64,000 bases of DNA from Enoplolaimus lenunculus (Eukaryota). The stretch lies in the NCBI GenBank assembly GCA_030248215.1, contig JASANG010000295.1, positions 434,001 through 498,000 on the forward strand, read 5' to 3'. Positions within the stretch are counted from its first letter, which is position 1; each line of letters begins with the position of its first letter. The translations under genes were made by a program, and so were the position numbers. The notes beneath the pieces are model-generated. The model saw nothing but the letters and a program-made list of their open reading frames with translations. It did no database searches and was not told the origin of the DNA. This document shows, one piece after another, positions 1 to 58,357 of the stretch.

Positions 1-706
1 CAGCAAGGATTTTTAAAAGTAGGGCTACGTTCTGCAAAAATGTCGAATGAGAGTTTCTTGAGTTCCTAAATAGCAATCATTTGCACCTACACAGATGTAA
101 AAAAAAATTGTAGTCCACTGTGCTAACAAGCGAGCTTGTTGGTTATCTAGAATGTTGAGCTGCAGACGTTTCTGCTGCTACTTCAAAAAAATCTGTTAAT
201 TACTCGCATGAAAACACAGTACTACTTCTATTGTTATCCAAGCTCACTTACTCGACGCGGGCTTGAAATACAAGCGATTACGGAAGAGTGTAAGCGGCAT
301 TTTTGTGAAGGTAAGGTGGCAACATAGTAACCGGGACTCATAGCCTTTTGCATCTGTCTGTCGTTGGAGGTCATTCGGCAAAATTGAAAAAGCCGAATCG
401 AACAATGTTCTGCAATACGTATATGTTTGAATTTTCAAACAATAAAAATTTTAAATAACTTCTAATATAAATTAATATTTTTGTTTCCGGTGACAAATCT
501 TAGATATGAGGCACGGCGCGAAATAATTGCGTTTGCGAAAACATAGATTATTAGTTGGAATACTAAATGTCATTAGTTTTTTTGCAGGTCGGAAAACAAC
601 GCTACAATTTTACTAAGTTTTGGCTTTGCGTTGGTATTCCTAAAACAATCGATCTATATATCACAAATTTGCAAAATGCAAGTCTCCGATTCGCATTCAA
701 AACATT

Positions 707-3700
707 AGCAATGAATGAAAACTCGGTACCACTCTGAATGCTACCCCACCATTTACCAACTCAGTCACACACCGCAATAATACACAGAACGCCAGCAATG
801 AATGAAAATTCGGTACCACTCTGAATGCTACCCCACCATTTGCCAACTCAGTCACACACCGCAATAATACACAGAACGCCAGCAATGAATGAAAATTCGG
901 TACCACTCTGAATGCTACCCCACCATTTACCAACTCAGTCACACACCGCAATAATACACAGAACGCCAGCAATGAATGAAAATTCGGTACCATTCTGAAT
1001 GCTACCCCACCATTTACCAACTCAGTCACACACCGCAATAATACACAGAACGCCAGCAATGAATGAAAATTCGGTACCATTGTGAATGCTACCCCACCAT
1101 TTGCCAACTCAGTCACACACCGCAATAATACACAGAACGCCAGCAATGAATGAAAATTCGGTACCACTCTGAATGCTACCCCACCATTTGCCAACTCAGT
1201 GACACACCGCAATAATACACAGAACGCCGGCAATGAATGAAAATTCGGTACCACTCTGAATGCTACCCCACCATTTGCCAACTCAGTGACACACCGCAAT
1301 AATACACAGAACGCCGGCAATGAATGAAAACTCGGTACCACTCTGAATGCTACCCCACCATTTACCAACTCAGTCACACACCGCAATAATACACAGAACG
1401 CCAGCAATGAATGAAAACTCGGTACCACTCTGAATGCTACCCCACCATTTACCAACTCAGTCACACACCGCAATAATACACAGAACGCCAGCAATGAATG
1501 AAAATTCGGTACCACTCTGAATGCTACCCCACCATTTGCCAACTCAGTCACACACCGCAATAATACACAGAACGCCAGCAATGAATGAAAATTCGGTACC
1601 ACTCTGAATGCTACCCCACCATTTACCAACTCAGTCACACACCGCAATAATACACAGAACGCCAGCAATGAATGAAAATTGGTACCATTCTGAATGCTAC
1701 CCCACCATTTACCAACTCAGTCACAAACCGCAATAATACACACAACGCCAGCAATGAATGAAAATTCGGTACCACTCTGAATGCTACCCCACCATTTGCC
1801 AACTCAGTCACACACCGCAATAATACACAGAACGCCAGCAATGAATGAAAATTCGGTACCACTCTGAATGCTACCCCACCATAGACACACGAACAGGGAG
1901 AAGGACGGAATTACCAACTCAGTCACACACCGCAATAATACACAGAACGCCAGCAATGAATGAAAATTCGGTACCATTCTGAATGCTACCCCACCATTTG
2001 CCAACTCAGTGACACATCGCAATAATACACAGAACGCCGGCAATGAATAGAAAATACGGTACCACTCAGAATGCTACCCCACCATTTGCCAACTCAGTGA
2101 CACACCGCAATAATACACAGAACGCCGGCAATGAATGAAAACAAATAAACAAAAAAAATTCGGTACCACTCTGAATGCTACCCCACCATTTGCCAACTCA
2201 GTGACACACCGCAATAATACACAGAACGCCGGCAATGAATGAAAATTCGGTACCACTCTGAATGCTACCCCACCATTTGCCAACTCAGTGACACACCGCA
2301 ATAATACACAGAACGCCGGCAATGAATGAAAATTCGGTACCACTCTGAATGCTACCCCACCATTTGCCAACTCAGTGACACCGCAATAATACACAGAACG
2401 CCGGCAATGAATGAAAATTCGGTACCACTCTGAATGCTACCCCACCATTTGCCAACTCAGTGACACCGCAATAATACACAGAACGCCGGCAATGAATGAA
2501 AATTCGGTACCACTCTGAATGCTACCCTACCATTTGCCAACTCAGTGACACACCGCAATAATACACAGAACGCCGGCAATGAATGAAAACTCGGTACCAC
2601 TCTGAATGCTACCCCACCATTTACTAACTCAGTCACACACCGCAATAATACACAGAACGCCAGCAATGAATGAAAACTCGGTACCACTCTGAATGCTACC
2701 CCACCATTTACCAACTCAGTCACACACCGCAATAATACACAGAACGCCAGCAATGAATGAAAATTCGGTACCACTCTGAATGCTACCCCACCATTTGCCA
2801 ACTCAGTCACACACCGCAATAATACACAGAACGCCAGCAATGAATGAAAATTCGGTACCACTCTGAATGCTACCCCACCATTTACCAACTCAGTCACACA
2901 CCGCAATAATACACAGAACGCCAGCAATGAATGAAAATTCGGTACCATTCTGAATGCTACCCCACCATTTGCCAACTCAGTGACACATCGCAATAATACA
3001 CAGAACGCCGGCAATGAATGAAAATTCGGTACCACTCTGAATGCTACCCCACCATTTGACAACTCAGTGACACACCGCAATAATACATAGAACGCCGGCA
3101 ATGAATGAAAATTCGGTACCACTCTGAATGCTACCCCACCATTTGCCAACTCAGTGACACACCGCAATAATACACAGAACGCCGGCAATGAATGAAAATT
3201 CGGTACCACTCTGAATGCTACCCCACCATTTGCCAACTCAGTGACACACCGCAATAATACACAGAACGCCGGCAATGAATGAAAATTCGGTACCACTCTG
3301 AATGCTACCCCACCATTTGCCAACTCAGTGACACCGCAATAATACACAGAACGCCGGCAATGAATGAAAATTCGGTACCACTCTGAATGCTACCCCACCA
3401 TTTGCCAACTCAGTGACACACCGCAATAATACACAGAACGCCGGCAATGAATGAAAATTCGGTACCACTCTGAATGCTACCCCACCATTTGCCAACTCAG
3501 TCACACACCGCAATAATACACAGAACGCCAGCAATGAATCAAAATTCGGTACCACTCTGAATGCTACCCCACCATTTGCCAGCTCAGTGACACACCGCAA
3601 TAATACACAGAACGCCGGCAATGAATGAAAATTCGGTACCACTCTGAATGCTACCCCACCATTTGCCAACTCAGTGACACACCGCAATAATACACAGAAC

Positions 3701-3963
3701 GCCGGCAATGAATGAAAATTCGGTACCACTCTGAATGCTACCCCACCATTTGCCAACTCAGTGACACCGCAATAATACACAGAACGCCGGCAATGAATGA
3801 AAATTCGGTACCACTCTGAATGCTACCCCACCATTTGCCAACTCAGTCACATACCGCAATAATACACAGAACGCCAGCAATGAATGAAAATTCGGTACTA
3901 TTCAGAACGCTACCATACCATTTTGCCAACTCATTGACACACCGCAATAATACACAGAACGCC
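707..3963. repeat. 87-bp tandem satellite, about 37 copies
   Basis: The unit aatgaatgaaaattcggtaccactctgaatgctaccccaccatttgccaactcagtcacacaccgcaataatacacagaacgccagc recurs at 87-bp spacing (710, 797, ...), with a few SNP variants and no unique spacers. Confidence 0.97.
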
Positions 3964-15308: not shown

Positions 15309-16509
15309 TTTTGTGCTTTTGCACCTATAATTTAGATAGTAACATGAGACTGCCTGCGTACAGTATAAACTAATCGCATTTCAAATTAGACGGCTAGTCA
15401 AAAGCATCGAAAAGATGAAGCGACGGTGTAAGCATATTTACAAGTTTGCTATATGCCTAACGACAGTTTGTAAAGGCACTAGCTATGTGTTTACACGACT
15501 ACACAATCATGTTTTGACAGTAACAAAATGTAAAGAAAAATTATTTGGTACTACCAGTGTCGAAGCCATAAATCTGTACAACAAAAATGGATGCCGGTAC
15601 ATACAAAATCAAAAAAGCTGCACTGAAATAGCATCAAGATTTTAAAACATAAAGTAATTTCATTCCTGTCTGACAGGCTTCTATTGCGGACGCCCATGGT
15701 TTGAATTATGTGCCGAATGTCGATTCAACACCGGAGCTGGAGGCAGACCTGTTGTTTCATCAACCCTGGTGTCCTCTTCGCTATTCGGTTTCAAGCCATT
15801 ATTTATTTTTATTCTAGTTTGGATGACATGGATTCCTGTAACCTGACAGAAGACATTTTTTACCGTTTAAACTTCACTATGGGATATCCAGATGCCCGCA
15901 GTAAATGTTACAAATGGTCCAGAGCTGGGTGCGATCTATGTTATTTTATGAAACTCTGTTAGAATGTTAAATAGAACTAGATTCTTTACATAGCTCACGG
16001 ATAACACTGACATAACACTAAACATAATCTATAAAGGCCATTTTTACGGTCAAAGTAACCAGTAACCAGTGCGTCTTGACACTACCTATAAAAATAGGAC
16101 ACTGTATGAAAGGACTACTGTAGTACATTTGTTTTAGCAAACACTGTGTACAAAGAAATCATTTCACATGTAGTCATAAAAACCGCTAGTACTTACAGAA
16201 CCCCCAGTGCGAGTCTGCCTTTCGTTATTGGTCCATACCTAGAGATCTTGTTTCATGCCTAAGCTGCATGATGTGCGTTGTCATCAGGCCCGAATTATTG
16301 CATCGTTTTTCGATACTACTGTTATAAGGTGGTAGATGTGACATTTTTTTACAACAATGCTCGCTTGCATATAAATCGGTGGATGGCCCTTTAGTTTACA
16401 ATACTTCCATGACATGAGTATGCTGCATTAACGATACTCCGAGCAGGATGGAAACGGGTAGTAAAAATAACGAAAACAACAGAAACAGAAGCAGATAGTG
16501 ATAAAACAA

Positions 16510-17495
16510 TGGAACAGTAGGGACAGCGGGGAAAGCGTGACAATTGGAATAGCGGGACAGTCGGAACAGCGGGACTGTTGGGACAGCGGGACGGTCGGAA
16601 GGACAGTTGGAACAGTTGGGACATGGGACAACGGGACAGTCAGGACAGTTGGAATAGCTGCGACAATTTCGACAGCGGGACAGTTGGGACAGTTGAACAG
16701 TTGGGACGAATAGTGAGACAGTTGGACAGTTGGGACGGATAGTGAGACGGTTGGGACTATGGGACAGTCGGGAAAGTTGGACAGCGGGCCAGTTCGGACA
16801 GCGGGATCGTTGAGACAGTAGCGGGAAAGCTATGACAGTTGGGACAGCGGGACAGTCGGAACAGCGGGACTGTTGGGACAGCGGGACTGTTGGGACAGCG
16901 GGACTGTTGGGACAGCGGGACAGTTGGACAGTTGGACAGTTGGGTGGGAGAGCGGAACAGTTGGACAGTTAGACAGTTGGGACAGTTGGGACAGCGGGAC
17001 AGTTGGACAATGGGACACTTGGGAAAGCGGGACAGTTGGGACTGCGGGACTGTTGGACAGCGGGACAGCTGGACAGCGGGACAGTTGGGACAGTTTGGAC
17101 AGCGGAGCAGGTGGACAGTTGGATAGTTGGGACAGTTGGGATAGTTGGGATAGCGGTACTCCTATGCCAGGTGGGACAGCGGTACTTCTATGCCAGGTGG
17201 GACAGCGGGACAATTGTGAAAACGGAACAATTGGGACAGTAGGACAGTAGGTACTGTGGGACGTTTGGACAGTTCGGACAGGGGGACAGGGGGACAGTAA
17301 GACAGTTGGGACCTTTGCACAGTTAGCACAGTTGAACAGTTGGACAAGTTGGGACAGTTGAGACAGTGAGACAGTTGGGACAGCGGGACAGTTGGGACAG
17401 CGGGACAGTTGGAACAGCGGCACGGTTGGAACAGTTGGGACAGCTGGGACAGCGGAACAGTCGGAACAGCAGGACAGTTGAAACAAAGGACAGCT
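16510..17495. repeat. Degenerate G-rich minisatellite (GGGACAGTT / GGGACAGC units)
   Basis: About 1 kb of 8-9-bp units with strong strand asymmetry. Confidence 0.9.
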
Positions 17496-18728
17496 GGACC
17501 CACAGCAAGAAAAAGCTTCTCCACATAGACAAATTTTCTGTGGATCCTAAACAGGATGAAGGATTGTCGCCCACAAAACACCCACACTAGGCAATTCTTT
17601 ATTGCAACACTTATCCTGCTCAGTGTCAGTGTCCCTTGAAACTGGGAGTCAGGGTGTGCTACAACACCCCCATCAAAAGGAAAGTAAAGATTGCCCCTAC
17701 TACGGCACATTCTCAGTATATATGGGGTCACAGGGGTTGCAACCCCCCTTGAGAAAAGTAAAAACTGTCCCTACTACATCGCATTGTCAGTATATAGCTG
17801 GGTATAACCGGTGCGGCTCCGGCTCCGGCAGAAAATCGGCCTCCGGCTTTCGCTCCGGCTCCGGTAGAATTTTCGCCGGCGTTTCCGGCAATTTCGATAG
17901 TAAAATTTTGCATAATTTTGCAACATTTATCTATTTAGCGCGTTTCTTTTTACTTCCGTCACAATTTTCAGGAAAGAATTTCCGAAATTTCGCAGAAAAT
18001 TAGCGTAAAACTAAACAAACAACTTAACAACATACTGTAGATATTGGCTAAAATTAACTAATTTACCACCATTTTTACAACCTAATTTCTACTCACATCC
18101 TGCTCCTGCTCTGGTATTTTTCTCATGATATTCGCACAAATGTCACGCAGTATCATATGACAAACGTCTATTTGTATACGACGATCGCTTGAGAATTGAT
18201 TTGTAAACCAATGTCATGTGAAATTTACGTTTTGTCTACACAACCGCCAGATCATAACATTTAATGTTGACGTCGAATCAACTTGGACAAACGTGTTCCA
18301 AGCTGACCACCCAGTTATAACGTGATCCCCGCATTATACCTGAACACGATTACACAGGTCAAAGATGTGAGTGGGTAAAGTACGCGCGCTGCGCTTTAAT
18401 ACCTGCGGAAATTTTATTTTTTTACCTGTGGGTATACCCGCGTAAAATTCCTTTGACCGTTACCCGTCTTTACCAGCGCAAAATTCCTTTACTATTACCG
18501 TCCTTACCTGCCCTTATTTTTTCTTCCATTGCTGCTGTCTTTCAAATAGTCGCAAATAATTTTTGATTTAACAGAACATTTCATGAGTGTAATATTTATT
18601 TTTCACTCATACGGTAAGAACCACAAATTTTTAATCGCGCTTGCCAAAATTTTCTTACCCGTACCCGCATTACCCGCGGCTACTTGCGGGTAATGTGGAA
18701 CTCTGACACCACTGGGTGCATCTTAAAT

Positions 18729-18850
18729 TTAACCCCTTCTCACATTGAATTGCCTATAGGCAACTCAGCGCAGTGGATATACAAGTTCGAATCCTAGCAT
18801 AAAAGTAGGTCTCAGGGGAAATAGAAAATATTCATGTGAGAAAGGGTTAA
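18729..18850. mobile_element. Short internally deleted piggyBac-like MITE
   Basis: ttaa-ccccttctcacat...atgtgagaaaggg-ttaa. Same termini as the element at 49988-50258. Confidence 0.75.
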
Positions 18851-18937
18851 GCGAAAAATTTTCAGTTTACTATCTTTAATGTATGTAGCGACTTGGCCAA
18901 ATCGTTGTAAACAATATATACTTATTGGCTTAAACGA

Positions 18938-19347
18938 ATACCGTAGTGACCCAATTAAGAGGGCGGAAGAATGATATTTATATGGCCTCTCCAGGGGTAC
19001 CCCCGTTGAACCCGTACGGCGCTACCCTCCGTTACTGATATATCCCCTATTAAGGCAACTATCCGTTTAATTAAACGTTTATTTGTGTTGTGTCAAAAAC
19101 TTGAGCGATAAATGCAAGGTTATTATCAGGAATGTATTTTCAAACCTTAAAAGTATGCGTTAAAGTTTTGAACTCAACTTTATTTGGTCATGGAGGCATT
19201 TATGCACCACAGTTAGGGACAATTGACATTTATGGACTGTAATTAGGGTTTTGGCGCTCTATCTGCTTATGAATTTTATTAGAGATACGGACTCCTATTG
19301 ATTGAGACTGAAAATGGGACCCCCTCGTATTCGGATCACCACAGTAG
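18938..19347. mobile_element. TA-flanked MITE (Tc1/mariner-pogo-like); other copies at 55057-55497, ~53766-54407, ~56230-56388, ~48580-48722
   Basis: The TIR consensus tactgtagtgacccgaataagaggg occurs in inverted orientation at both ends. The internal sequence (aaaagcttgagcgataatgcaaag...atttatggact) is shared with the 55-kb copy. Confidence 0.7.
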
Positions 19348-19386
19348 TGATTAAAATAAACTAAACGAAACTGAAATGGAAAACGG

Positions 19387-19615
19387 TGTAAGAATTGTGG
19401 CATATTAATATAGTAATTATCATTAACTTCATAGTGCCGTATTACCATAACATTTTATTGACAAATGTAACAAACACGAATATAACAAAACTAAAGCACC
19501 GAAGAAGTCACAGTGATTTCCAAAAGGTTAGCCAACCTCCCAGCGCTTACACCGCCTACACTCAATTGCATATGCAAAACGCTTATTGCAGCTAGGCAAT
19601 ACATGCGGCGCCACA
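19387..19615 (-). repeat. 3' LTR (229 bp)
   Basis: tgtaagaattgtggcatatt...atacatgcggcgccaca. Both ends match 25625-25694. On the minus strand it is preceded by the purine-rich tract gtgggggtag (19616-19625). Confidence 0.92.
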
Positions 19616-20285
19616 CTACCCCCACGGTTAAAAGCGGAGCTATATGCTCCAGAAATTGAAGCATTCTGATTTTTAAATCGAACAAACTTTCTTACACTGA
19701 CATGTTCTGAAGGAACCGGGTGAACAATTTCTAATTTTGTCTTGTCCTTGCTTATTGCTTCTTCTGCTGCACGAAGCGCATAGCGTAATCTGCTTTGACG
19801 AGTGTGTTCACAAAATGTAAAACGAAATATATCAGCGTAGTGAACGAAAGCATAGCGATTTGTAATAAAAAACTGAACAGCGCGAGAGTATTTAGGCTGC
19901 CTTAAGTGCTCGAGCGGTGTTCCTTTAATGGTTACAATTCGAGCGGGCCACAATGGAAAATTCTTTACTTCTGCGTTAACAATACTACCAATTGGAAGAC
20001 TTTCCGGGTTAAAACAAACGTAGTTTGCGACCCGCGATCTCAAGCAAGACTTTTTCTCGTAATTTTCGTTAATTTTAAAATTACGAGGTGCATTACTCAA
20101 AATAACCTCTTCACTGGGCATGTCTAGGAATGCTGGCTTGATGCGATCGATTGAGATGCGATTCGGCACCTCATTCTGCTCAAGCGTGACGGTCTTTCCA
20201 TCTCGGCTAATGACTTTATGGGGCCCTGTGTATCGCGGCTCGAGAGAGTTCTTCGGAGCAGTATCTTTCACCCAACATATTCACA
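19528..20285 (-). CDS. pol: Integrase C-terminal region: GPY/F motif followed by a PWWP domain (~19760-20010)
   Basis: LEPRYTGPHKVISR...ISIDRIKPA is the GPY/F module. It is followed by PIGSIVNAEVKNFPLWPARIV...AVQFFITNRYAFVHYADIFRF...RLRYALRAAEEAI, which follows the PWWP consensus (G.LVWAK.KGYP.WPA.V...V.FFG...AWV...I.P). A frameshift near 20370 separates it from the integrase core. Confidence 0.85.
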
Positions 20286-20371
20286 TGATTGAAGCTCTTT
20301 GGGCACGTAGTTCGACACTCTGTGGTTGCGAACAGGTGCTGAAAAAATTTTCACACCCGACAAAAAAGATT

Positions 20372-21259
20372 CTAAAACGCATGTGAAAAAACTGGGCATT
20401 CTGGTGTATGTGAGGAAAAGTAGTATCCAGGCAGATCTAAAGTTTTACCGTATAACACCTGCGCTGAATTGACGCCATCTTTATTAATTGTGCAGCGTAT
20501 GCCTAAAAGTATGAATGGTAAATGCCGCGTCCAATTGACGGAATCACATTTAGCGCGTAGCGCAGCTTTCAGAACGCGATGAAAACGCTCTACTGCACCA
20601 TTACAAGCCGGATGATAGGCGGTTGTGCGTTTTCTCGTGATTCCATGTTGTCGCATCAGCTCATTCCAAACAGCGGATTCAAACTGCGCACCACGATCTG
20701 AAATAAGTATACGGGGTACGCCAAGCCGGCTTACCCAATTATTGATAAACGCACTAACAACTGAATTGGTTGACATGTCAGGCATTGGCACAGCCTCTGG
20801 CCATCGAGTAAATCTATCAATAAGAGTCAAAAGGTATGAACAACCGTTTGACCGAGGGAGAGGGCCAACGATGTCTATATGTACAGTATGTAATCTGGCA
20901 GAGGTCGGGATATTGCCGACCGGACTCTTCGTGTGCCTACCCACCTTACTGGCCTGACACTCCCGACAAGTTTTGCACCAGAGCCTAATTTCTTTATTCA
21001 TACCAGGCCAAATATATCTTTGCGCTAAAGTACGTATGGTGGCGTTCGAACCAGCGTGAGAAGTACCATGAAATTCCTGAAAAAGATGACGTCGCAAAGA
21101 AACAGGGACATAAACCCGATGTGTATTCGAAGTTGCATCACAAATCAAAATTTTATCATTAACAACAACAACTCTTTTAAGAGGTAATGAAGTGGTTTGG
21201 AAGAAATGCTGCAGAGAATCATCCTGTTTCTGTGCATCCGCAATGACATCGTCACACAT
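20372..21259 (-). CDS. pol: Integrase zinc-binding and catalytic (rve) core
   Basis: HHCC motif (FHGTSHAG...CRECQASK), VHIDIVGPLP, LIDRFTRWPEAVP, ISDRGAQF, TTAYHPACNGAVERFHR. Confidence 0.97.
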   Translation of the reverse strand: MCDDVIADAQKQDDSLQHFFQTTSLPLKRVVVVNDKILICDATSNTHRVYVPVSLRRHLFQEFHGTSHAGSNATIRTLAQRYIWPGMNKEIRLWCKTCRECQASKVGRHTKSPVGNIPTSARLHTVHIDIVGPLPRSNGCSYLLTLIDRFTRWPEAVPMPDMSTNSVVSAFINNWVSRLGVPRILISDRGAQFESAVWNELMRQHGITRKRTTAYHPACNGAVERFHRVLKAALRAKCDSVNWTRHLPFILLGIRCTINKDGVNSAQVLYGKTLDLPGYYFSSHTPECPVFSHAF

Positions 21260-21286
21260 GGAAGTAACGGCTGCACGCGAAGAACG

Positions 21287-22540
21287 TTACAGAGCATCAG
21301 CGACTATGTTATCGCTTCCTGCAACATGTACAATATTGCAGTTATGCTCAGAAATATAAGAAAGCCAACGACAATGCTGCGGGGTGGCATTTTTCATACC
21401 AAACGCATGAACTAAGGGTTTATGATCAGTCCGGATAGTGAATTCCGCCCCAAGCAACCAGTTGAAGTGTTTCAATGCGGCATAGATGGCCAATAGTTCC
21501 CTGTCGAAGGTTGACTTTTTTTGTTCGGTTTCTGAAAGTTTTCGAGAAAAAAATGATAATGGTTGACGTTGCCCATTAAGTAATTGATTTAAAGAGCACC
21601 AACGGCTATATTAGAAGCATCCGTTGTGATCTCAAGTTTAGCGTTAGCAATAGGATAAATCAATCTACAACTGTTATATAATGCAATTTTTAACGAAGAA
21701 AACGCATTATCAGCTTTCTGATTCCACACCAAAATGTACTTAGGCGTTCCTTTTGCGTTGCGAGTCATGTCAGTAAGAGGGGCCGCTATTTCCGAAAATT
21801 TTGGGATGAACCGATGATAAAACGCCGCCATCCCTATAAAACGCCTCAAACTCCGGACCGTAACGGGTTTTTCATACTCACAAATCGCGTCTACTTTAGC
21901 CGGTACTGGTCTAAATCCATTAGAAGAGACCTCAAAACCAATAAAGTTTGTTTTTGTAACCAAAAATTCGCATTTTGCAATTTTTAAACGCAAACCATTT
22001 GCCTGCAAACGCTCAAATCTTATTCGTAAATGGTCAAGATGTTGATGTACGTTCTCGCTTGCAATAATTACATCATCGAGGTATGCTATCGCAAACGGAC
22101 AGCCCTGCAGTACGGTGTCCATCAAACGCTGAAAAGTTTGCGCGGCATTGCGCAACCCGAAAGGCATGCGCTTATAGATGAAAAGCCCAAAAGGGGTTGT
22201 GATTGCAGTTTTCAGCCGGTCGCTTTCAGCCACTGGAACCTGGTGATAGGCGGACACCAAATCAACCTTCGAAAAAATTTTACAGTTCCTTAAACGGTTT
22301 ATCAAATCCCCAATGTTAGGCATTGGGTAGCGGTCTGGCACAGTCACCCTGTTCAGTTAGCGGTAATCGCCACAGGGTCTCCAAGGCACTATACTATCAG
22401 ATTTCGGAACCATATGGAGGGGAGACGCCCAGGGCGACTCTCCTCAATACACAATTCCTTGTTTTTCCAGTTGCTCAAATGATTTCTTTGCTATTTCTAG
22501 TTTTGCACCGAAAATTCTACGCGGTCTAGCAAAAACAGGG
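21287..22540 (-). CDS. pol: Reverse transcriptase and RNase H (frameshifted pieces)
   Basis: PDRYPMPNI, FSKVDLVSAYHQVP, TAITTPFGLF, MPFGLRNAAQTFQR, YLDD, TTDASNIAVGA, TDHKPL, GSDNIVADAL. Confidence 0.97.
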
Positions 22541-22795
22541 TATCCCTTAGTTTCAATCTGGTGTACGGCGGAATGTTGAACGGTGTCACCGGTTGACAAA
22601 TTATCAAAAAGTGCTTTATACTCCAATAAAATGCGCTGCAGTCCATTGTTCGGTTGATTTCCGATTGATAAAATGCTATTTGGACCGATACCACGTTCCG
22701 AGGAAGGCTCTAAATTTTGCGAGTTCCAACGATCCCCAGTAACTTGAGGACTCCGAACCAAACGAAAATTTCGGCAATCAACTATTAAATTATTT

Positions 22796-23111
22796 TTATA
22801 CCAAAAGATCGAACCCCAAAATTGGCTGTGAAACATCTGCAATTATAAAATCCCACAAAAAATTTTGTCGCAGTTGGGGAATACAAAAACTTATCGTTTT
22901 AGTTCCAAATGTGGGAACCAGTGAGCCGTTTGCCGCGTAAAAACTTCCTCGCTTCCGAATTAGAGTTTGAAATGTCCCCAGCAAACGACCTTGGCCAAAA
23001 ACTCTTTACACTACCGGTGTCTGCCAGAAACTCTCCGATTTTAGGTGCAGCGACTGTTATAGTGCGGACTCCGGTCCCTGTCGCTTGGGGACCGGAGAAC
23101 CTACATTTCCC
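22796..23111 (-). CDS. pol: Retropepsin-type aspartic protease (frameshifted)
   Basis: FLADTGSVKSF active-site motif, followed in another frame by AANGSLVPTFG...WDFIIADVSQPILGFD. Confidence 0.9.
23049..23111 (-). promoter_or_regulatory. -1 programmed ribosomal frameshift signal at the gag-pol junction
   Basis: Heptamer G GGA AAT (23111-23105) lies in the gag frame (P-G-N). A 7-nt spacer precedes a perfect 10-bp stem (23097-23088 with 23078-23069). Loop AGCGAC is complementary to downstream GTCGCT (23054-23049). The -1 frame leads directly into the protease DTG motif. Confidence 0.85.
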
Positions 23112-24098
23112 GGCCCGCGTACGATCCATTCACAAGATTTTCTGCAGTTACGAGCCCGTGGACCAAATCTTGAATGATAAAAACAAAGTTGTCGATTATT
23201 AGATCCATATCTACTCTGCGATTGTGAACCACGTGTCGAGCTAGAACGAAAAAGACCATGGAAACTTTGGTGTCCACTCGCCCGGTGGATCGGGCGAGAT
23301 CGATTTAGCCCACTCATCTGCCTACTTAGTTGGGAAATACAGTTGGACATCACCTTAATCTCCGACCGCAAAACAATCGACTTTGTCAGTTGGCTGATCC
23401 TCATTCGCAATAGCTACACACGTGTCCGACGTCAACCCTGGGGACAATTGCTCTAAAATTTTATCTGCTAAACTAGCCAACTTCTCAATGTCCATATCAT
23501 CCACAACAGCCAAAGAAATCCGAACTTTTTCGGGAAGAGTCGCCATAAATCGGAGCTTTACAAGTTCTGAGTGTCTCGGTGCCTTACCTTGTAGCTGACG
23601 CAACAAAACCGATGGTTAACGGTCACCCAAAGTTTGTTGCTCCAGCAGTTTTCGCAACTGCATTTCCTCACTCTGACCAAAAAACTTGAGCACGCAATCT
23701 TTAATAGCTATGTAACTGTCAGTGGCTTTAGTGCCACTGTCAATCATCACGTTAGTTGGAAGTGCGTTTAGTAAAGCATTCCGCTTTAACGTGTCCGAAA
23801 GCCCTTCAATGAGCGGCTCAATCTGCGTAAACCACACGCGAACGTCACGTTCGTAAAACTCAGGAAGCTTTGGCAGTCGGCCGTCAACAGTACTTTCCGA
23901 TGTTGTGGACTTTGATGCATCACCAGCCCACTTAATAGCCACACTTACTACACCTTGTGGCAAAACAGCTAAAGCATCCACGATTAATCTTTTTGTTCCT
24001 GGCATGACAAAATCCATATCGTGTTCATTTATCAGCTGGAGTGCCTTTGAAAGTATCTCTTTATCATACTTATCCAGTGCCTTAACATCCAGCTTCTG
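23057..24098 (-). CDS. gag: Gag (one premature stop at ~23616 and one frameshift at ~23400)
   Basis: LPKLPEFYERDVRVWFTQIE, LGDR*PSVLLRQL, and the C-terminal CX2HX9CX3C motif typical of CsRn1-clade Gag. Confidence 0.88.
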
Positions 24099-24150
24099 TG
24101 GGCCAGGATTGGGCTCAATTCCAGTCATAATCAGCAAAATTCTCAATTTT
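24099..24150 (-). other. 2A-like (StopGo) peptide no. 2, variant motif
   Basis: KLRILLIMTGIEPNPG/P immediately before Gag. It has G rather than D at the first position of D(V/I)ExNPGP. Confidence 0.7.
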
Positions 24151-24605
24151 GTAGCATGGCGAGCGGTAATTCCTGGAATAATAATGGCGCTCACATCAAA
24201 CTCCCCAGTAACTGGAGATTGGTATGATCTTGTTGCATGGGCACTATCAAACAACCAGATTAAAACAAACAATACATCGAAGAGGAAAATATAGCCTCGT
24301 ATCCACATTGTTAGTGTAGGGTGTGAGGCGCTACGCGGTTCAGAGGCGGTCTTTGTAGTGCGTATCCTTTGCTGCAAAACTTGTTTCGTCATCGGTAAAC
24401 TCTGCATTGAAATTGCCGCTGAATAACTACAAAAAATAGTTTGAGTTCGTTCACTTCCTTTGTGATCTCTTCGGGGCGCCTTATGACGATTCCGAGTCAG
24501 CGAATTCTCACAATCTTTGGTTAAACCTTGAGACTGAGCTGTGACAACATGGTTTAAAAAATTACCATGACCTTCACACAAACCACCAATTCTGGGGCGG
24601 TGAAC

Positions 24606-24949
24606 CTTTAGAACTTCATTAGCTAAGGAACAAATAATACGGAAACGCTGCGACCCAAGATGTATACCGCCGTACCATCGTGTGACAATAACAAGAATAT
24701 TAAATGTGCCAGACATCTCTAACAACGCCAAAAGTCGCCTACCTGCACCATACTCGCCATCATCCTGGTAACCGGAGTCAAGTCCCATCTCCTTCACAAA
24801 CCGATATGCATAAATGTTATGTGTAGCACACGCTACCTTTCTACTTGAAGATAGCAAATTATCAACTACCGCATGTACATCATTAACTGAGAATACAGTT
24901 GCTATATGAGCCTGAAAAGTGCTTTTCTTAAACGAAAATGGTGAGCCAG
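24606..24949 (-). CDS. IMPACT/YigZ-family 'ancient' (UPF0029) domain within the retrotransposon ORF1
   Basis: GSPFSFKKSTFQAHIATVFSVNDVHAVVDNLLSSSRKVACATHNIYAYRF...QDDGEYGAGRRLLALL...NILVIVTRWYGGIHLGSQRFRII closely follows the animal IMPACT C-terminal domain (STFQAH, ATHNIYAYR, DDGE..AG.RLL.L, V.RWYGGI.LG..RF). It is in frame with 2A no. 2 and Gag. Confidence 0.92.
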
Positions 24950-24990
24950 AAAAAAATTATTTTCGCCGCTGGGCTTACAATCATGCAAAA

Positions 24991-48722: not shown

Positions 48723-51319
48723 CTATTGTTTTTCGTGTTCAAAAAAATTTGTCACATTTGTCAGCTCTAAACCAAATTTTTCATAATATAGCTTCGACAA
48801 TTTATTGAGGTGTCGTTTAAAATGAGTTCCACCAAGCGATTTTTCTGTCTCACTGAAGCGGTTGCGAACGCATTGACAAGTATCGTTTTGAAGTGGCCAA
48901 TAGAAGAAGCCGTACCGAGTGACCGGGCTACAAGGACTCAGCCAAAATCGGCGGCTCTGGACCGTGTCGGAATCGAGTAATGAACGCTTGGTTAATGATC
49001 TCCCAGTATCAGCAACTAGTGGATTGTAGTCAATTTTGGCGATTTGACATGGTGGATAATCTTTCGACTCGAAATTTCTTTTCGATTTAAGCCCTACAAA
49101 ATGTACTACGCGCGTAAATTTGTTTGCGTTCTCGTGGAATTCATCCACGGCTGAAGTGGCACGAAAAAATCGATAATGATATATTTTGATATAAAAATAA
49201 ACGAATTTCATGGCTGTTTAAGGCTATTAATGTGTGAAATACGAGACATTTACGTATTGAAAATCCTAGAAAGCAAGAGTCTTTAAATTTTAAGACATTT
49301 TATTTTGCGTGTAGTTCAAAAGGCGAGCTACGGGATGCAGTGGTAGATTATAAAAGTAGTTTAAGAGGCGGGATACGTGGCGCAGTGGTACAGTGTAAGG
49401 ATCCATACGTCGCTAATTTGAAACCACCCGTGATCCGCTGTTTCAGCTGCTAAAAATGTCTGAAGTCTCGGATCTATAGAGAGTGACAGGCCCACCTACA
49501 TGGATCAACATTAAAATTTTTGTATTAAGCCATATATACATATACTGACACTGCGTTTGGCTTCTCGTTCGTTCGCACGTGAGCTTTTTTCATTATTATA
49601 TACATATAGTGTAGTTCCTATGGTGAAAAATGTCTAGTCCTTGCACTCATGACCAGTATTTAACTTACCCGGGTAGTTATGTTTTCTCCTGTTTTCAGGT
49701 GAATTAGAATAATTTGGCCGTTTTAAAATCACTGTTTCGTCTAGCCGTTTCTTCGGTGTCGATACAATTGTGGTCGCTTTTGTACAAGTAAACACAGTAA
49801 AATATGGCCGCGTATGAACTGTCACGACTAAATCGATGCAGGTATCTGAAAATAAAAAGTCAAATTAAACCCTTGCAATTAGCAAAATACTAAAGAATCA
49901 CTGTGACTAAAAACCTATTATACTAGGCAGCGATAAATGTTGGACGAATGGGCGACAATTCGCCGCCTGACTACTTGTCGCTTTCGCTTAACCCTTTCTC
50001 ACATGAATATTTTCTATTTTGCCTGAGACCTACTTTTATGCTTGGATTCGAACTCCGGTGACTGGAGTGGGAAGCGTATGCCATCAACACTCAGCTATAG
50101 GAGCTTGACGCTCGAGCCCAAGGGGGCTCTCACGTCTTGTGGTGATTTAGTACTATGTATACGTGTTGCAATTGTTCAACAAGGTGCGATATACATTATT
50201 TAACGTATATACACTGCGCTAAGTTGCCTATAGGCAACTCAATGTGAGAAGGGGTTAAGTCAAAACATAAATATTAATTATAAGCTTATGCGCAATAATG
50301 GGCAACAAATTGTCGAGTCGACGAGATTTCGAAGCACAAGTTGTCGGGTAACAACTTTTCGGGCGACAAGGTTTTGGGCGACGAATTGAAAATGGAAGCA
50401 TCGTATTCTGGTTGCGAGCATACTTCATAAGGGGTGCAGCAAAAGCGGAAGTAACCCACCCTCCACCTTTTGAAAACCAAATCTTTGCTTTGAGGTTATG
50501 ACTAAAATTGCGTTTGGCTATTCGCTTGTTTCGGTCACAGTAATTGTTTCGTTACGCCTCTACGTAGGATTGGACTAAACTTGCAGGTGTGACGGGCAAT
50601 CACTTTGGTAATTACCGAGCGTGTTCAATCGTCCCAGCCTATCGGTACGACCGCAACGCCGCTTACCAATTGAACAATTGCAGTATATTAAGCTTTGAAA
50701 AATTAAACTATTTATAATAATATATACATACAGTGCCGGAGCAGGCAGGGGTGGGGGCTCTCCCCAAGTTTCAGGGTGGGGGGCCCCAAATTCGCGAGCG
50801 AAGCGAGCGAGACGCATTTTAAACTTAAGCGGTTTTTGTTTCAACCGGTTAGGGTGGGAGCCCCTTTAAGGGTGGCAGCCCCACAAATGGGGGGTATGGG
50901 GGGTTCATATTGCGTGTGAAGTGCAAAATCCCACCTTTCTCACAATCTCCACAAAACCGTAACTTGCTAAACTTTGCCACACGATTATAAAACACGGTTC
51001 GTGCGTTTTCGGCATATATCGATGTTGCAGCGTCGGAATCTGATTCAAGCGCCTGACAAATCCCAATCACAGCACTTGTACCGTCTGGAATCTTGCATAA
51101 ACTATCGTTTTCAAGTGCAATTATTGCAAAATTATGCGCTACATCCGGTTCAGTGTTGCGGCTGATCCGGGTATAAACGAATTGAGGTGAGTTTGACAGT
51201 GTCAGCCGACACGGAAGTATTGTCGGCTCTTTCTTTTTAGTATCTGGTTTTGTAGTTCCTGATGTACTTGTGATGGTTTCAGTAGGAAACTCAGCGATTA
51301 CATTGACAGGATGAGACAT
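48723..51319 (-). CDS. Highly divergent Runt-domain protein, ~329 aa. Exons 51319-50935, 49845-49669, 49150-48723
   Basis: SNSPQFVYT...FAIIAL...IPDGTSAVIG...ENARTVFYNRVAKFSKLRFCG...KG^DTCIDLVVTVHTRPY...KATTI aligns by eye to Runt (TDSPNFLCS; F.VVAL..VPDGT.V; NATA..KNQVARFNDLRFVG; LTITV.T.P). Both GT-AG introns are phase 1 at the same positions as in the neighbouring Runx gene (exon 2 is 177 versus 180 nt), and the spliced frame is open. Confidence 0.75.
49988..50258. mobile_element. piggyBac-like MITE containing a tRNA-like segment; partial copy at ~38225-38390
   Basis: ttaa-ccctttctcacat...atgtgagaagggg-ttaa. The minus strand carries tagctgagtg...ggagttcgaatcc (A-box and B-box-like). Confidence 0.75.
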
Positions 51320-54300
51320 CCTTGATGATAGTATACTGGAGTTTACAAAGACTAGGCGTTATCACAACAGAAAGCATATTGAATCATATGTATATATCAT
51401 AAAGCTGGAACGCCCACAATGCGTTATGGGCTTCGTTCCAGGTTTATTTTTGTGCTAAAAATGTTTACGAAAAAAAATTAAATCAAATTAATTAAATAGT
51501 AATCATAGCTTAAGATTTAGACATATTTTCTCATGCTAAGGGCTTTGGAAAATGCTTACACTACTGTTACAGCCTTGTTCTAAGCGTTGACTCAATTTTT
51601 TAGGATGTTCATGTGGCAGATATACAGCAACTGCTATCACTAGTATAAACTTACATTAAAAATTCATTTTCACTTCTTGTGAGTGCAAGTAAAATGTACA
51701 ACTTTTTATAATTAAATTTTACTCTTGTGGACGTTCCCAAACATTTGAGCATAGGGTTTAAAAGTTATAATCTTAAGAACAACGTTTGCTTTTTGACGGA
51801 AAATTTGTACCAACTGTAGCTCAACCTACGTCAACATACCTAGTTTTTAAGAACATTTCGGGTTACGCTATACTCGCCGCGCGTCGTTGTGCGTATGCGC
51901 GCCGCGCAGTAAAATTATTTATTAGAAATTCCCTAAAAAATTTGGCCTGTATTTTTGTTAGTAACGCACAGCGGCGCGCGGTGGCGTGCGATACCGTGCG
52001 GTAGCGCACTGCGGCGTGTGGCGACGTTTGGCACAGAAATGTATAGCGCAACCCTAGTAATTTTTTAAAAGTATGTAAACGAACTAGGATAGAGTAGATA
52101 TTATTAAAATATAAAGAAGTATATACTGAGTGACTAGTAAACAAGTGTTTTTCAAGTGCGAGAGCCGGGACTTTTTGAACAACGTAAAAAACAAGACGCG
52201 AAAGGTAAAAACATTTTATGTCCAACATTGATACAAAAGTTTATGAGCAGTGATCCACGTCATGTATCGGGGCTTAGACAGTTGGACTGAAGACTTAGAG
52301 ACTAGAAAGCTAAGGCTTTGGCTTACCCTTGAACTAGGCTTATGTTTTTGCTCAGGCTTAGATTTAGTCGTAGGCTAGGTTTATGCTTATTCTTAGTAGG
52401 CAGGCTCGTGCAGTTAAGAAGGACCTGTGTAGCCATCGAAACCTTTACTTCACATTAAAGTTATAATTGTTTCTGTAAAATAGTATACGTTGCAATTTCT
52501 GTCTTAATATATTAAAAGTTTAAAAATAAAACAATTTGCTAAAACTGTTTTAAAACTTCATTGATAGTTAAAACCGTTTCGCCATGCTGACTACAAAATT
52601 GATGACATTAAAAATCTATGTTAAGATTTTATTTACCTTAACCGGAATTAAACAGCGACAGATCCTATAGTTTCCGACAGGCAGAGTGCAATTAATAATG
52701 ATGAAAATACTTCGCAGACGTGAAGCCAAACATAATTTTGCTACTAAATATCAATATTAAGCCTTGGTTTTGTGTCATTGTTGTGTTTCTGTATATATGG
52801 TGTACTTTATTCCGGTTGCGCGGCTAAGGTTTGAGTGGACTTAGTACCTAATTATTTATCTTGTGGACTGACTGCATGCCGCGTTGTAACATAACTGTCT
52901 TGTTGCATTTTTACGCGTGATACGTAATTGCTTTGAGCATTTCATTCATTATGTAAAATTTACTTAGTGTATTAAATTGCAAAGTCAGTTGTATTTTGTT
53001 AAAAAATATAGTTTACACGCCCACAAACCAAAACAAACGGCAGGATTGCAAAAAACCGTGAAAAAAAATTAAAAAATATAAGAGCGAATTTTCACTGGTA
53101 GACGAGATCAGCGCTTACAGGTTCAAGGTGGCGGGGGGGCACCGAGACCTTGGTCCTCGCGCCAACAGCGATTAAAGCCAAAGTTTTGTGCTAAGAATTA
53201 AGTGTTAAAATTGCGTTCGACTTCAATTTGGTTCGTTCGTATGTTTCGTTTTAGCATTATTTATGGTGCGGCGATTTACACTAGAACATTCTCGATCCGC
53301 CATCACTGGAGTTCGGTTGAAGACAAAAGACTTTTTATTTATATGTTTATACTTCGCAGTAAGCGTTTTTTTCCTTGAAAACATTAATTACTAATATTAA
53401 AATATTGAATAGTTTGCTCAAAAATGGAAAAATTGTTCCTGCATGTTAACCGCGCAAAATAGTAATTTAGTTGAAATACTTAGACCTGAATTAGAAACTC
53501 AAGCCATGCCCTGCAATAGCAGTCAAAAATAAAATTTCGCGTTAAGCGTGAACACTGCGTTTGACTTTTCGCTCGGTTTGATCGCAAGCGTTTTTTACTA
53601 TCGTCCGCGGGTACCCGCGGGTAACCGCGAATCGGGTAAAGAATTTCAGGCGCAGGGTATACCCGCGACAAAAGATTTGTATCACGCGGATAAAAAAATT
53701 GGCAGTTCTTACCCTTGCCAACCTTTTATGTGTTAACATGCAAAATATCGGCTAGTAACTAATATAGTGACCCGAATAAGAGGGAAACTGACATTTATTT
53801 GGCCTCTCCAGAGGGTGCCCCCCTGTTATTGGGTTACGGACTGTTATCCGGAAACGGAAACGGATATCCGGTTGCACCCTGGCAAACAGTCATCTGATAT
53901 TTATACTAGCAAAATATTGATAAGAACAACGCATGTCGGTTCAATATATAAAGCGGGGTTGTGATGCTAATCATTCAGCTAATAAGGGAACGTGAACTAC
54001 TTTGAGTAAGCTTCCATATCTTACGTAACGTGATATTGTCTGTTTTACTTCTGGTCAGATGCTGTGTAGTTTTATACCGGTGCTTCATTTAGTTGGGTTT
54101 CAAATTTTGTTGTTTAGTTTATAAAAGCTTCATGTGTAAAATTCATTGAAGCTATAAACGTAAAACTTCATTAACTTGCAAATCATCAGCAAACTTTAAC
54201 ATTCTGGTTTTACTTCAGTCGCGGGTAAAAGGTGGGTCGCGGGTAGATCTTTTTAGCGCGGGTATGCCCGCGGGTAAGAAATGCATTACGTGGGTAAAGC

Positions 54301-57300: not shown

Positions 57301-58224
57301 AATATGTTCCACAAACTTTAGAATTTGTAGCTTTAGCATTGAACAATCTTCGGTTTTCAACACTCACTGACTAGCTGTTCTAGCGTACATTGTTCACGTT
57401 TAACACATTAAAAGTTGGCGCGTTGGTAACAACTGCCGTTTTTTACCCGTGTAATGCCAATCATTACCTGCGAGTATACCCGCGCCTGAAATTCTTTACC
57501 CGACCCGCGATTACTCGCGGGTACCCGCGGGTTTTTCCAACTCTGTTTGAAGAGACCCCATTTCCGCCAAAACAGAGCTGTATTAACATTGGGAAGATTG
57601 AACCTGGAATATACACCGTAACCGTGTACAATTTAACATAAAATGTCTAAAAAATTTTGAAGCTGACTTCACTCCTCAGAGACAGCCTATTGCATCTTTT
57701 GCCGAAAATGTTATCTTCGGAACTGTGTCCATCCGCACGACTGTCAACGTTTTCTCTCTGTCGGCCGGGACAGCCAGGATAGCTTCGAGCCCGCTCTGTG
57801 GCTTGGACTTAGGCATTATGTTTTAGGTTTACGCTTAGGCTTGGGCTCTGGCGCAGGCTCAGGCTGCGCCTTGGTTTTATGGGTTAGGGCCCGGTTGTCA
57901 AAGCCACCCAACGAAATTATTGACAAATAGTTGTCCCGACTTCTCACAGTCCTGCGTAACTCAGCAAAAATATAAACCCAAAGCTGTCGCGACCGTCACG
58001 ACAAATCCAACGAAAACATAAGCTCGAAGCTTACCCGAATGTCCCAGCCGACCCAGAGGAAACATGAGCTAGAAGCTTTCCCGGTAATCCTGGTTGAGCT
58101 TTAAAAATATCGGCTCGAAGCTGTCCGCCTACCCAAGTAAAATCATGGGCCACAAGCTGTCCTGCCGTCCTAACAGAGATATTGGTTCAGGAGCAGGGTG
58201 CAGCCGGAGGTGAAAAATATCAGA

Positions 58225-58357
58225 GCCGGAACACGAGGTCAACAAAACAGCCGGAACCCGAGGTCAACAAAACAGCCGGAACACGAGGTCAACAAAACAG
58301 CCGAAACACGAGGTCAACAAAACTGCCGGAACACGAGGTCAACAAAACTGCCGGAAC
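58225..58357. repeat. 25-bp tandem repeat, about 5 copies, inside a dispersed gccgga-rich repeat family (also ~17800-18000, ~26110-26230, ~27390-27484)
   Basis: gccggaacacgaggtcaacaaaaca at 58225, 58250, 58275 and onward. Confidence 0.9.

What the first reader, a model, noticed from the sequence alone, without database searches (positions are those of the whole stretch)
19760..20010. PWWP histone-reader domain at the integrase C-terminus
Seen: after the GPY/F motif the frame continues into GSIVNAEVKNFPLWPARIV...VQFFITNRYAFVHYADIFRF...LRYALRAAEEAI. It retains the F, W and F positions that form the PWWP aromatic cage. Established: chromoviruses place a chromodomain at this position, and HIV-1 integrase is tethered to H3K36me-marked gene bodies by the PWWP of host LEDGF/p75. 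Inference: this element encodes its own PWWP tether in cis and may target integration to H3K36me2/3 chromatin. That would be a PWWP analogue of chromoviruses in a non-chromovirus clade.
Basis: partly seen in the sequence, partly recalled or inferred. Interest (0 to 1): 0.82.

Follow-up and report, generated by a model that had tools for sequence, protein, structure and literature searches.

The report
Retrotransposon integrase with built-in PWWP reader
A decayed jumping gene in an apparently animal genome ends its integrase with a PWWP domain, the chromatin-binding module that HIV borrows from its host, and a dozen divergent relatives carry the same fusion, which likely tethers new insertions to nucleosomes, possibly those of active genes.

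Summary
Observation confirmed. Window 19735-20004 (minus strand) is a true PWWP domain: Pfam 39.2 bits against a cut-off of 25.6, and a confident fold matching solved PWWP domains at Z 10-11. It follows the integrase GPY/F module of a full-length, decayed Ty3/Gypsy element (19387-25694) with CsRn1-type Gag. This copy is frameshifted between the integrase core and that module. Two intact Pol relatives carry RT, RNase H, integrase and PWWP in one frame, and ten partial relatives show the same join. The PWWP bearers form one integrase clade (97/92); one BEL/Pao-type protein carries the same PWWP subtype. The aromatic triad is complete in 9 of 14 domains, but the LEDGF E49 position is Arg/Lys in 11 of 14 and never acidic, so H3K36me specificity is plausible but untested. 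Targeting was not testable (no genome or reads). Six full-text searches showed no element-encoded PWWP; chromodomain and Tudor analogues are published. This scan had no earlier PWWP-retrotransposon finding, though it noted PHD, Tudor and chromodomain analogues on other DNA. The element also has an IMPACT domain and 2A motifs before Gag. Verdict: new variant of a known kind, interest 0.72.

The parts
19383..19386 (.). 4-bp target-site duplication (ACGG), left copy
   Evidence: flanks
19387..19615 (-). 3' LTR (229 bp, TG...CA)
   Evidence: 52/53 and 17/17 identical to the two ends of the 5' LTR
19616..19623 (-). short purine-rich tract next to the 3' LTR (putative PPT)
   Evidence: read from sequence
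19675..19689 (-). RVxF-like motif (KFVRF) that marks the usual end of the integrase tail; relatives mostly stop soon after it, this copy's frame runs on into the LTR
19735..20004 (-). PWWP domain (Pfam core 19759-19989); cage positions F108, W111, F137 of the 250-aa ORF
20005..20127 (-). variable, low-confidence linker
   Evidence: pLDDT 45-58; 20% mean identity, 26-121 aa among 10 members
20128..20280 (-). integrase GPY/F module (GPH in this copy), in frame with the PWWP
20275..20402 (-). two frameshifts between integrase core and GPY/F module in this copy
   Evidence: tblastn with P0001 and P0003
20375..21286 (-). integrase H2C2 zinc finger and catalytic core
   Evidence: PF17921 E 2.8e-18, PF00665 E 1.6e-15
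21290..22815 (-). reverse transcriptase and RNase H, broken by stops and a frameshift
   Evidence: PF00078 E 2.4e-27, PF17917 E 5.8e-19
22802..23030 (-). protease region (ADTGS at 23010-23024), frameshifted
23132..23185 (-). Gag CHCC knuckle (C-X2-H-X9-C-X3-C)
   Evidence: signature defined in PMC2582038
23619..23897 (-). Gag N-terminal domain (DUF7041-like)
   Evidence: E 8.2e-5, below cut-off; tblastn to Gag of L004 and L007
24099..24122 (-). 2A/StopGo-like motif GIEPNPGP, in frame between IMPACT and Gag
   Evidence: fits (D/G/C/N)(V/I)ExNPGP of PMC12846837
24609..24929 (-). IMPACT/YigZ (UPF0029) domain at the front of the 446-aa Gag ORF
   Evidence: E 2.7e-28, 98.5 bits; yeast IMPACT homologue 6bqi, E 5e-17
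24991..25017 (-). canonical 2A motif GDIESNPGP, one frame off the IMPACT ORF in this copy
25603..25620 (-). primer-binding site, 4 nt from the 5' LTR
   Evidence: similar sites in CsRn1-like loci L004 and L006
25625..25694 (-). 5' LTR, 70 bp, lacking about 160 internal bases relative to the 3' LTR
25695..25698 (.). target-site duplication (ACGG), right copy

Best explanation
This is a decayed copy of a Ty3/Gypsy retrotransposon lineage whose Pol ends integrase core - GPY/F module - linker - PWWP, and the PWWP likely acts as a built-in nucleosome tether that would bias integration toward H3K36-methylated chromatin. Shown: the domain, its fold, its in-frame fusion in intact relatives and its retention across one diverged clade. 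Inferred: one ancestral insertion of a host PWWP (most similar by profile score to the HDGF/LEDGF type) between the GPY/F module and the old terminal motif of integrase. Inferred from LEDGF: each integrase subunit of the intasome presents a PWWP on a flexible linker; its basic surface grips nucleosomal DNA and its F/Y/W-W-F pocket takes a methyl-lysine where the H3 tail leaves the nucleosome, so several weak contacts add up and integration occurs nearby. This would do in cis what HIV-1 does in trans through LEDGF/p75.
For: PWWP above the Pfam cut-off in the window and in 10 of 12 Gypsy-type relatives. P0001 (1128 aa) and P0002 (1100 aa) carry RT, RNase H, integrase and PWWP in one chain. Among 10 members with all three parts, the PWWP keeps 33% mean identity and a fixed core spacing while the linker keeps 20% and varies from 26 to 121 aa, which points to selection on the domain. 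On an integrase tree built without PWWP or linker, the 7 PWWP bearers tested group at 97/92 (31 rows) and SH-aLRT 96 (59 rows, quick tree). Full aromatic triad in 9 of 14 domains, T47 equivalent in 13 of 14, A51 equivalent in 11 of 14, net positive charge in 13 of 14. Best single-domain PDB matches of the family profile are LEDGF and HDGFL2 (46 bits). The position is the one where chromoviruses carry a chromodomain (PMC5053271 passage) and Gypsy-10_Ec32 a Tudor domain (PMC12477816 passage).
Against: No binding or insertion data: no genome is held and no reads were obtained. The E49 equivalent is Arg/Lys in 11 of 14 and never acidic, and E49A in LEDGF mainly costs specificity. DNMT3B also has Lys there but has Asp at the T47 position (alignment), which this family lacks. 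5 of 14 domains lack a full triad and the M15 position is polar in 5 of 14. P0115 sits inside the clade and has no PWWP, so the domain is dispensable or was gained after P0115 branched. The mean identity of the PWWP (33%) is lower than that of the GPY/F module (49%). All 11 relatives looked up are single-member clusters without context.
Confidence: 0.55

Rival explanations
1. The PWWP is a mark-independent DNA or nucleosome clamp: it raises integrase affinity for chromatin or target DNA through its basic face, and the pocket is kept mainly for folding.
For: Basic residue at the E49 position in 11 of 14; incomplete triad in 5 of 14; positive net charge in 13 of 14. W21 and F44 belong to the hydrophobic core in LEDGF. 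PWWP-DNA complexes (Shuguo, HRP3) are among the fold matches.
Against: The Y18 position, which affects specificity more than affinity in LEDGF, stays aromatic in 10 of 14 while switching among F, Y and W; T47 and A51 equivalents are kept.
Confidence: 0.28
2. The PWWP reads another methyl mark (for example H4K20me or H3K79me) or a non-histone partner, or serves a step other than target choice, such as nuclear retention of the pre-integration complex or evasion of silencing.
For: The pocket rim differs from LEDGF. An HDGF2 PWWP structure with an H3K79me3 peptide is among the matches (3qj6). That some PWWP domains bind H4K20me is recalled, not tested.
Against: Closest solved relatives are H3K36me readers. 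The position at the integrase end fits targeting, by analogy with chromodomains.
Confidence: 0.13
3. The PWWP is a passenger: a host exon or nested fragment captured in this copy, or a chance neighbour, with no role for the element.
For: This copy is dead, with at least 4 in-frame stops and several frameshifts in Pol, and its PWWP ORF is cut off from the integrase core.
Against: 12 diverged relatives have the same join, 2 in intact Pol chains. The old terminal motif still follows the PWWP in 8 of 13. Leave-one-out profile scores are 76-114 bits for members, against about 22 for a cellular-type PWWP protein.
Confidence: 0.04

Closest known systems
Chromoviruses (Ty3/Gypsy elements with a C-terminal integrase chromodomain, e.g. 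MAGGY; PMC5053271 passage; Grau-Bove preprint section)
   Same: Gypsy Pol with a Royal-family methyl-lysine reader fused after the GPY/F module; presumed tethering role.
   Different: Reader is a PWWP, not a chromodomain; lineage has CsRn1-type Gag; expected mark is H3K36me with a DNA co-contact, not H3K9me; function untested here.
HIV-1 integrase with LEDGF/p75 (PSIP1) PWWP (PMC3616739 and PMC3663649 passages)
   Same: Same domain type, and LEDGF/HDGFL2 are the best single-domain PDB matches; W21, F44, T47 and A51 equivalents mostly kept.
   Different: Encoded by the element in cis rather than recruited from the host; no integrase-binding domain needed; E49 position is Arg/Lys.
CsRn1-like LTR retrotransposons (CsRn1, PwRn1, AgCR1-14; PMC2582038 passages)
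   Same: CHCC Gag knuckle, 4-bp target duplication, similar primer-binding site, GPY/F module, no env frame; sister to CHCC-bearing elements on the integrase tree.
   Different: The paper reports no chromodomain in these elements; the CsRn1-like loci L003-L009 show no PWWP (L007 is cut by its contig end before the tail). This element adds a PWWP and an IMPACT-2A leader.
Gypsy-10_Ec32 of Ectocarpus (C-terminal Tudor; PMC12477816 passage)
   Same: A non-chromo Royal-family reader at the C-terminus of a non-chromovirus Gypsy element.
   Different: Tudor rather than PWWP; a brown-algal host; the main text of that paper has no mention of PWWP.

Membership tests
PWWP domain (PF00855) | Profile score above the curated cut-off | tested here: met
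   39.2 vs 25.6 bits; 10 of 12 Gypsy-type relatives above, P0006 and P0016 below
PWWP domain (PF00855) | Five-stranded beta-barrel followed by a helix | tested here: met
   Strands E100-103, 111-115, 132-137, 143-147, 151-153 and helix 163-183; Z 9.5-11.1 to solved PWWP domains
H3K36me-reading PWWP (LEDGF type) | Aromatic residues at Y18, W21, F44 | tested here: met
   F108, W111, F137 in the window; complete in 9 of 14 family domains (the table was anchored on the W)
H3K36me-reading PWWP (LEDGF type) | Pocket rim M15, T47, H48, E49, A51 | tested here: inconclusive
   T47 13 of 14 and A51 11 of 14 kept; E49 position Arg/Lys in 11 of 14, never acidic; M15 position polar in 5 of 14 (P0006 has an insertion and is mis-anchored there)
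H3K36me-reading PWWP (LEDGF type) | Basic DNA-binding surface | tested here: inconclusive
   Net charge positive in 13 of 14 by residue count; surface not mapped; window has Glu at the K14 position
H3K36me-reading PWWP (LEDGF type) | Selective binding to H3K36me2/3 nucleosomes | not testable with these tools
   Needs biochemistry
Ty3/Gypsy LTR retrotransposon | LTR-PBS-gag-PR-RT-RH-IN-PPT-LTR order with target duplication | tested here: met
CsRn1 lineage | Gag CHCC signature C-X2-H-X9-C-X3-C | tested here: met
   23132-23185; definition
CsRn1 lineage | tRNA-Trp primer-binding site | tested here: inconclusive
   Site resembles those of L004 and L006 and of 8 of 120 viral-collection loci, but no tRNA-Trp gene was found to pair with it; the Trp assignment of this sequence is recalled
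CsRn1 lineage | Pol phylogeny inside the clade of named members | tested here: inconclusive
   Sister to unnamed CHCC-bearing elements; joint branch only 86/78; no named reference was in the tree
Chromovirus | Chromodomain at the integrase C-terminus | tested here: not met
   Pfam finds PWWP and no chromodomain in the window ORF or in the relatives
Chromovirus | Phylogenetic placement in the chromovirus branch | not tested
   No named chromovirus was in the tree; Gag features point to the CsRn1 side

The most novel reading that the evidence does not exclude
A retrotransposon lineage has internalised the LEDGF strategy: it encodes its own H3K36me2/3 reader on integrase and aims at transcribed gene bodies, and the same PWWP subtype has passed between Ty3/Gypsy and BEL/Pao elements as a portable targeting module. 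It would be a natural cis-acting counterpart of HIV-LEDGF tethering and a counter-example to the view that transposons avoid readers of active chromatin.
Probability: 0.4. Interest if true: 0.85.

Novelty: new variant of a known kind. Interest (0 to 1): 0.72.

Why it matters
Element-encoded readers described in the papers I could read are chromodomains, PHD fingers and one Tudor domain, and the rarity of bromodomain fusions has been read as avoidance of active chromatin (Grau-Bove preprint, section 10). A PWWP on integrase would test that idea directly, because H3K36me3 marks transcribed gene bodies. It gives a natural cis version of the best-studied retroviral tethering system, and a small domain whose mark preference can be measured with standard nucleosome assays. 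If the pocket proves mark-blind, the family shows how a captured reader is re-tuned into a plain chromatin clamp. The BEL/Pao-type carrier suggests that targeting modules move between LTR superfamilies.

Tried and rejected
No genome is held for this window and no sequencing runs were obtained, so copy number, insertion sites, expression and the reality of the frameshifts in reads remain open. A near-length protein search with the 250-aa ORF found 0 of 275 candidates. PWWP-pattern scans confirmed 0 of 187 metagenome and 0 of 71 viral stretches. ESM Atlas: no usable hit for the P0003 tail; the P0001 PWWP matched generic PWWP clusters at 0.91-0.94, none listed with integrase families. The single-sequence fold of P0015 failed (mean pLDDT 34) and is not used. 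The careful 59-row tree did not finish; the quick tree and a 31-row careful tree are quoted instead, from 121 qualifying rows (most distant loci dropped). No donor tree for the PWWP was built, because only one cellular-type PWWP sequence was in hand. No Rfam hit in 18000-27500. No tRNA-Trp gene in the window or in 120 pattern loci. IMPACT scan of viral contigs: 0 of 18 confirmed. No complex prediction was run, since methyl-lysine cannot be modelled there. Rejected: chromodomain or Tudor identity; chance or single-copy capture (relatives).

Full report
OBSERVATION. Pfam gives one family for it, PWWP, residues 98-174, E 1e-9, 39.2 bits against a cut-off of 25.6. All 25 PDB sequence matches are PWWP-bearing proteins, led by DNMT3B and HDGFL2. 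AlphaFold2 on a 12-sequence alignment models residues 91-180 at block pLDDT 90-98 as five strands and a long helix, with a separate three-strand module at residues 22-43 and a low-confidence linker. Foldseek's listed rows are PWWP domains. VIA-align gives Z 11.1 (DNMT3A/3B entry, rmsd 3.5 A, 92 residues), 10.8 (MSH6, 2.1 A, 81) and 10.2 (HRP-2, 2.8 A, 82). The domain is real.

THE ELEMENT. The ORF is the end of a 6.3-kb Ty3/Gypsy element on the minus strand. It has LTRs at 25625-25694 and 19387-19615, an ACGG duplication on both sides, a primer-binding site 4 nt inside the 5' LTR and a short purine tract before the 3' LTR. Pfam finds RT, RNase H, the integrase zinc finger and core in order. 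Gag carries the C-X2-H-X9-C-X3-C knuckle that PMC2582038 gives as the CsRn1 signature; that paper also names a tRNA-Trp primer site, a 4-bp duplication in PwRn1, a GPY/F motif and no chromodomain (passages read). The copy is dead: the stretches that align to an intact relative hold 4 in-frame stops, and the alignment changes frame several times, twice between the integrase core and the GPY/F module (frames -1, -3, -2 between about 20400 and 20275). In this copy the PWWP is in frame with the GPY/F module only. No reads were obtained, so I cannot say whether every break is real. Runt-domain frames elsewhere in the window suggest an animal host; this is an inference.

THE FAMILY. A search for longer proteins found 1 hit among 403 candidates, P0001, an 1128-aa Pol annotated RT, RNase H, integrase and PWWP; its tail found P0002 (1100 aa, same domains; 2 hits among 253 candidates including itself). 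phmmer over 1.84 billion representatives gave 125 hits. A family profile detects a PWWP in 14 of the 126 proteins fetched: 12 Gypsy-type proteins, P0015, and one cellular-type protein (P0061). Of the 12, two are whole Pol chains, four have part of the integrase core, three start at or just before the GPY/F module and three keep only its last words. Ten of the 12 pass the Pfam cut-off; P0006 and P0016 do not. The 11 proteins looked up are single-member clusters from Logan, JGI, ENA or NCBI, with no informative name. Among 10 members with all three parts, mean pairwise identity is 49% in the GPY/F module, 33% in the PWWP and 20% in the linker, whose length runs from 26 to 121 aa. Leave-one-out profiles score members at 76-114 bits (window 80) and P0061 at about 22; the best single PDB domain scores 46 with the full profile (LEDGF, HDGFL2). 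The elements thus share one PWWP subtype.

ORIGIN. On an integrase tree without linker or PWWP, the window copy and the six relatives long enough to include form one branch with P0115: 97/92 in a 31-row careful tree and SH-aLRT 96 in a 59-row quick tree; both were drawn from 121 qualifying rows, most distant loci left out. The sister group holds the CHCC-bearing loci L005-L008 and P0098; the joint branch is weak (86/78), and no named element was in the tree, so 'CsRn1 lineage or its sister' is as far as I go. None of 82 loci fetched by integrase patterns shows a PWWP. P0115 has no PWWP and ends soon after the GPY/F module in an RVxF-like motif. That motif occurs in 43 of 99 PWWP-less tails (3.7 expected from shuffles) and after the PWWP in 8 of 13 bearers. 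I infer one insertion of a PWWP between the GPY/F module and the old terminus, with loss in P0115 or a gain after it branched. P0015 joins DUF5641 (a BEL/Pao integrase tail, recalled) to the same subtype; one case suggests, but does not show, exchange between superfamilies.

THE POCKET. Using the LEDGF numbering of PMC3616739 (passages) and the alignments, the window has F, W, F at Y18, W21, F44. Across 14 domains (window, 12 relatives, P0015) the triad is complete in 9; Y18 is aromatic in 10, F44 in 12; T47 is kept in 13 and A51 in 11; net charge is positive in 13 (rows were anchored on the W, and P0006 is mis-anchored after an insertion). Against: the E49 position is Arg/Lys in 11 of 14 and never acidic, and the M15 position is polar in 5. 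PMC3663649 (passages) reports that W21A and F44A may disturb folding, while M15A, Y18A, H48A and E49A mainly reduce specificity; nucleosome affinity there comes largely from DNA contacts (1.5 uM against 17 mM for peptide). DNMT3B has Lys at the E49 position but Asp at the T47 position; this family has neither acid. The window copy also has Glu at K14 and Ile at G46, unlike most relatives.

MECHANISM. Best reading (0.55): the PWWP tethers the intasome to nucleosomes through DNA and a methyl-lysine pocket, biasing integration toward H3K36me2/3 chromatin. The domain, fold, fusion and clade-wide retention are shown; tethering, mark and bias are inferred. Rivals: mark-blind DNA or nucleosome clamp (0.28); another mark, partner or step (0.13); passenger (0.04).

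WHAT IS KNOWN. Six full-text searches paired PWWP with retrotransposon terms and listed 1, 3, 3, 0, 0 and 1 papers. I read passages of PMC5053271, which treats PWWP only as the LEDGF tether and chromodomains as the Gypsy analogue. I saw only listings for PMC6877644, PMC10018349, PMC13117020, PMC9065133 and PMC6673722; none announces an element-encoded PWWP. The Grau-Bove preprint (10.1101/2021.11.30.470311; passages and section 10) surveys 823 chromatin-TE fusion models, names Chromo, PHD, SNF2_N, SET 'and others', and notes that bromodomain fusions are rare; its two PWWP mentions are unrelated, but its Supplementary Table 6 was not seen and could list PWWP fusions, and the journal version is not held. 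PMC12477816 (passages) reports a C-terminal Tudor domain in Gypsy-10_Ec32 as the first for a TE and has no PWWP in its main text. Gao et al. 2008 is not held and is cited through these papers. Repbase, Dfam and GyDB were not searched. Earlier findings of this scan hold no PWWP-retrotransposon case but list PHD, Tudor and chromodomain analogues; one led me to the Ectocarpus paper.

SECOND FEATURE. The 446-aa ORF before the Gag stop begins with an IMPACT/UPF0029 domain (yeast IMPACT homologue 6bqi at E 5e-17) and reaches Gag through GIEPNPGP; a canonical GDIESNPGP lies just upstream in another frame. Both fit the core motif (D/G/C/N)(V/I)ExNPGP of PMC12846837 (passages); PMC3708506 (passages) describes 2A motifs in non-LTR elements and warns that the core alone is not sufficient. 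One search found no paper on IMPACT in retrotransposons. Whether relatives share this leader is open.

VERDICT. Observation confirmed; interpretation partly supported. New variant of a known kind (reader fused to the integrase end), with a reader type for which I found no report. Interest 0.72; the boldest reading (cis LEDGF-like targeting to gene bodies, shared across superfamilies) has probability 0.4 and would merit 0.85.

Noticed in passing
window 24099-25017 (minus): Before Gag the element has a canonical 2A motif, an IMPACT/UPF0029 domain without RWD (Pfam E 2.7e-28), a hydrophobic stretch and a second 2A-like motif in frame with Gag. This suggests IMPACT is released as a separate protein. 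A full-text search for IMPACT + UPF0029 + retrotransposon found 0 papers. Whether relatives share it is unknown: none of 82 loci matched, but none belongs to the PWWP clade. Deserves its own follow-up.
   Followed up: partly
protein P0015 (ENA, 8091-bp contig): BEL/Pao-type integrase tail (DUF5641, 35.3 bits vs cut-off 23.1) followed by a PWWP of the same subtype (leave-one-out 88 bits; 34-41% identical to members). One case only; the BEL/Pao link of DUF5641 is recalled.
   Followed up: partly
window 19675-19689; tails of CsRn1-like integrases: An RVxF-like motif (the pattern of PP1-docking sites, recalled) ends many of these integrases: 43 of 99 PWWP-less tails against 3.7 expected from shuffles, and 8 of 13 PWWP bearers. 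Possible phosphatase recruitment, untested.
   Followed up: partly
window 25625-25694 vs 19387-19615: The 5' LTR lacks about 160 internal bases present in the 3' LTR; the shared 70 bases differ at one position.
   Followed up: partly
window 35368-36021 and 50849-51358 (minus): Two Runt-domain frames (E 3.3e-31; E 6.6e-6, divergent), with long polyglutamine frames at 28809-31253 and 33527-34474 that share a repeated segment. Suggests tandem RUNX-like genes and an animal-type host.
   Followed up: partly
window 26355-26909 (minus): zf-RVT-like frame (E 0.0015, below cut-off), probably the end of a LINE next to the element.
   Followed up: no
window 595-3800; 16400-17500; 58199-58387: Tandem arrays: an 87-bp unit in about 35 copies, a degenerate 8/17-bp array, and a 25-bp unit.
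   Followed up: no
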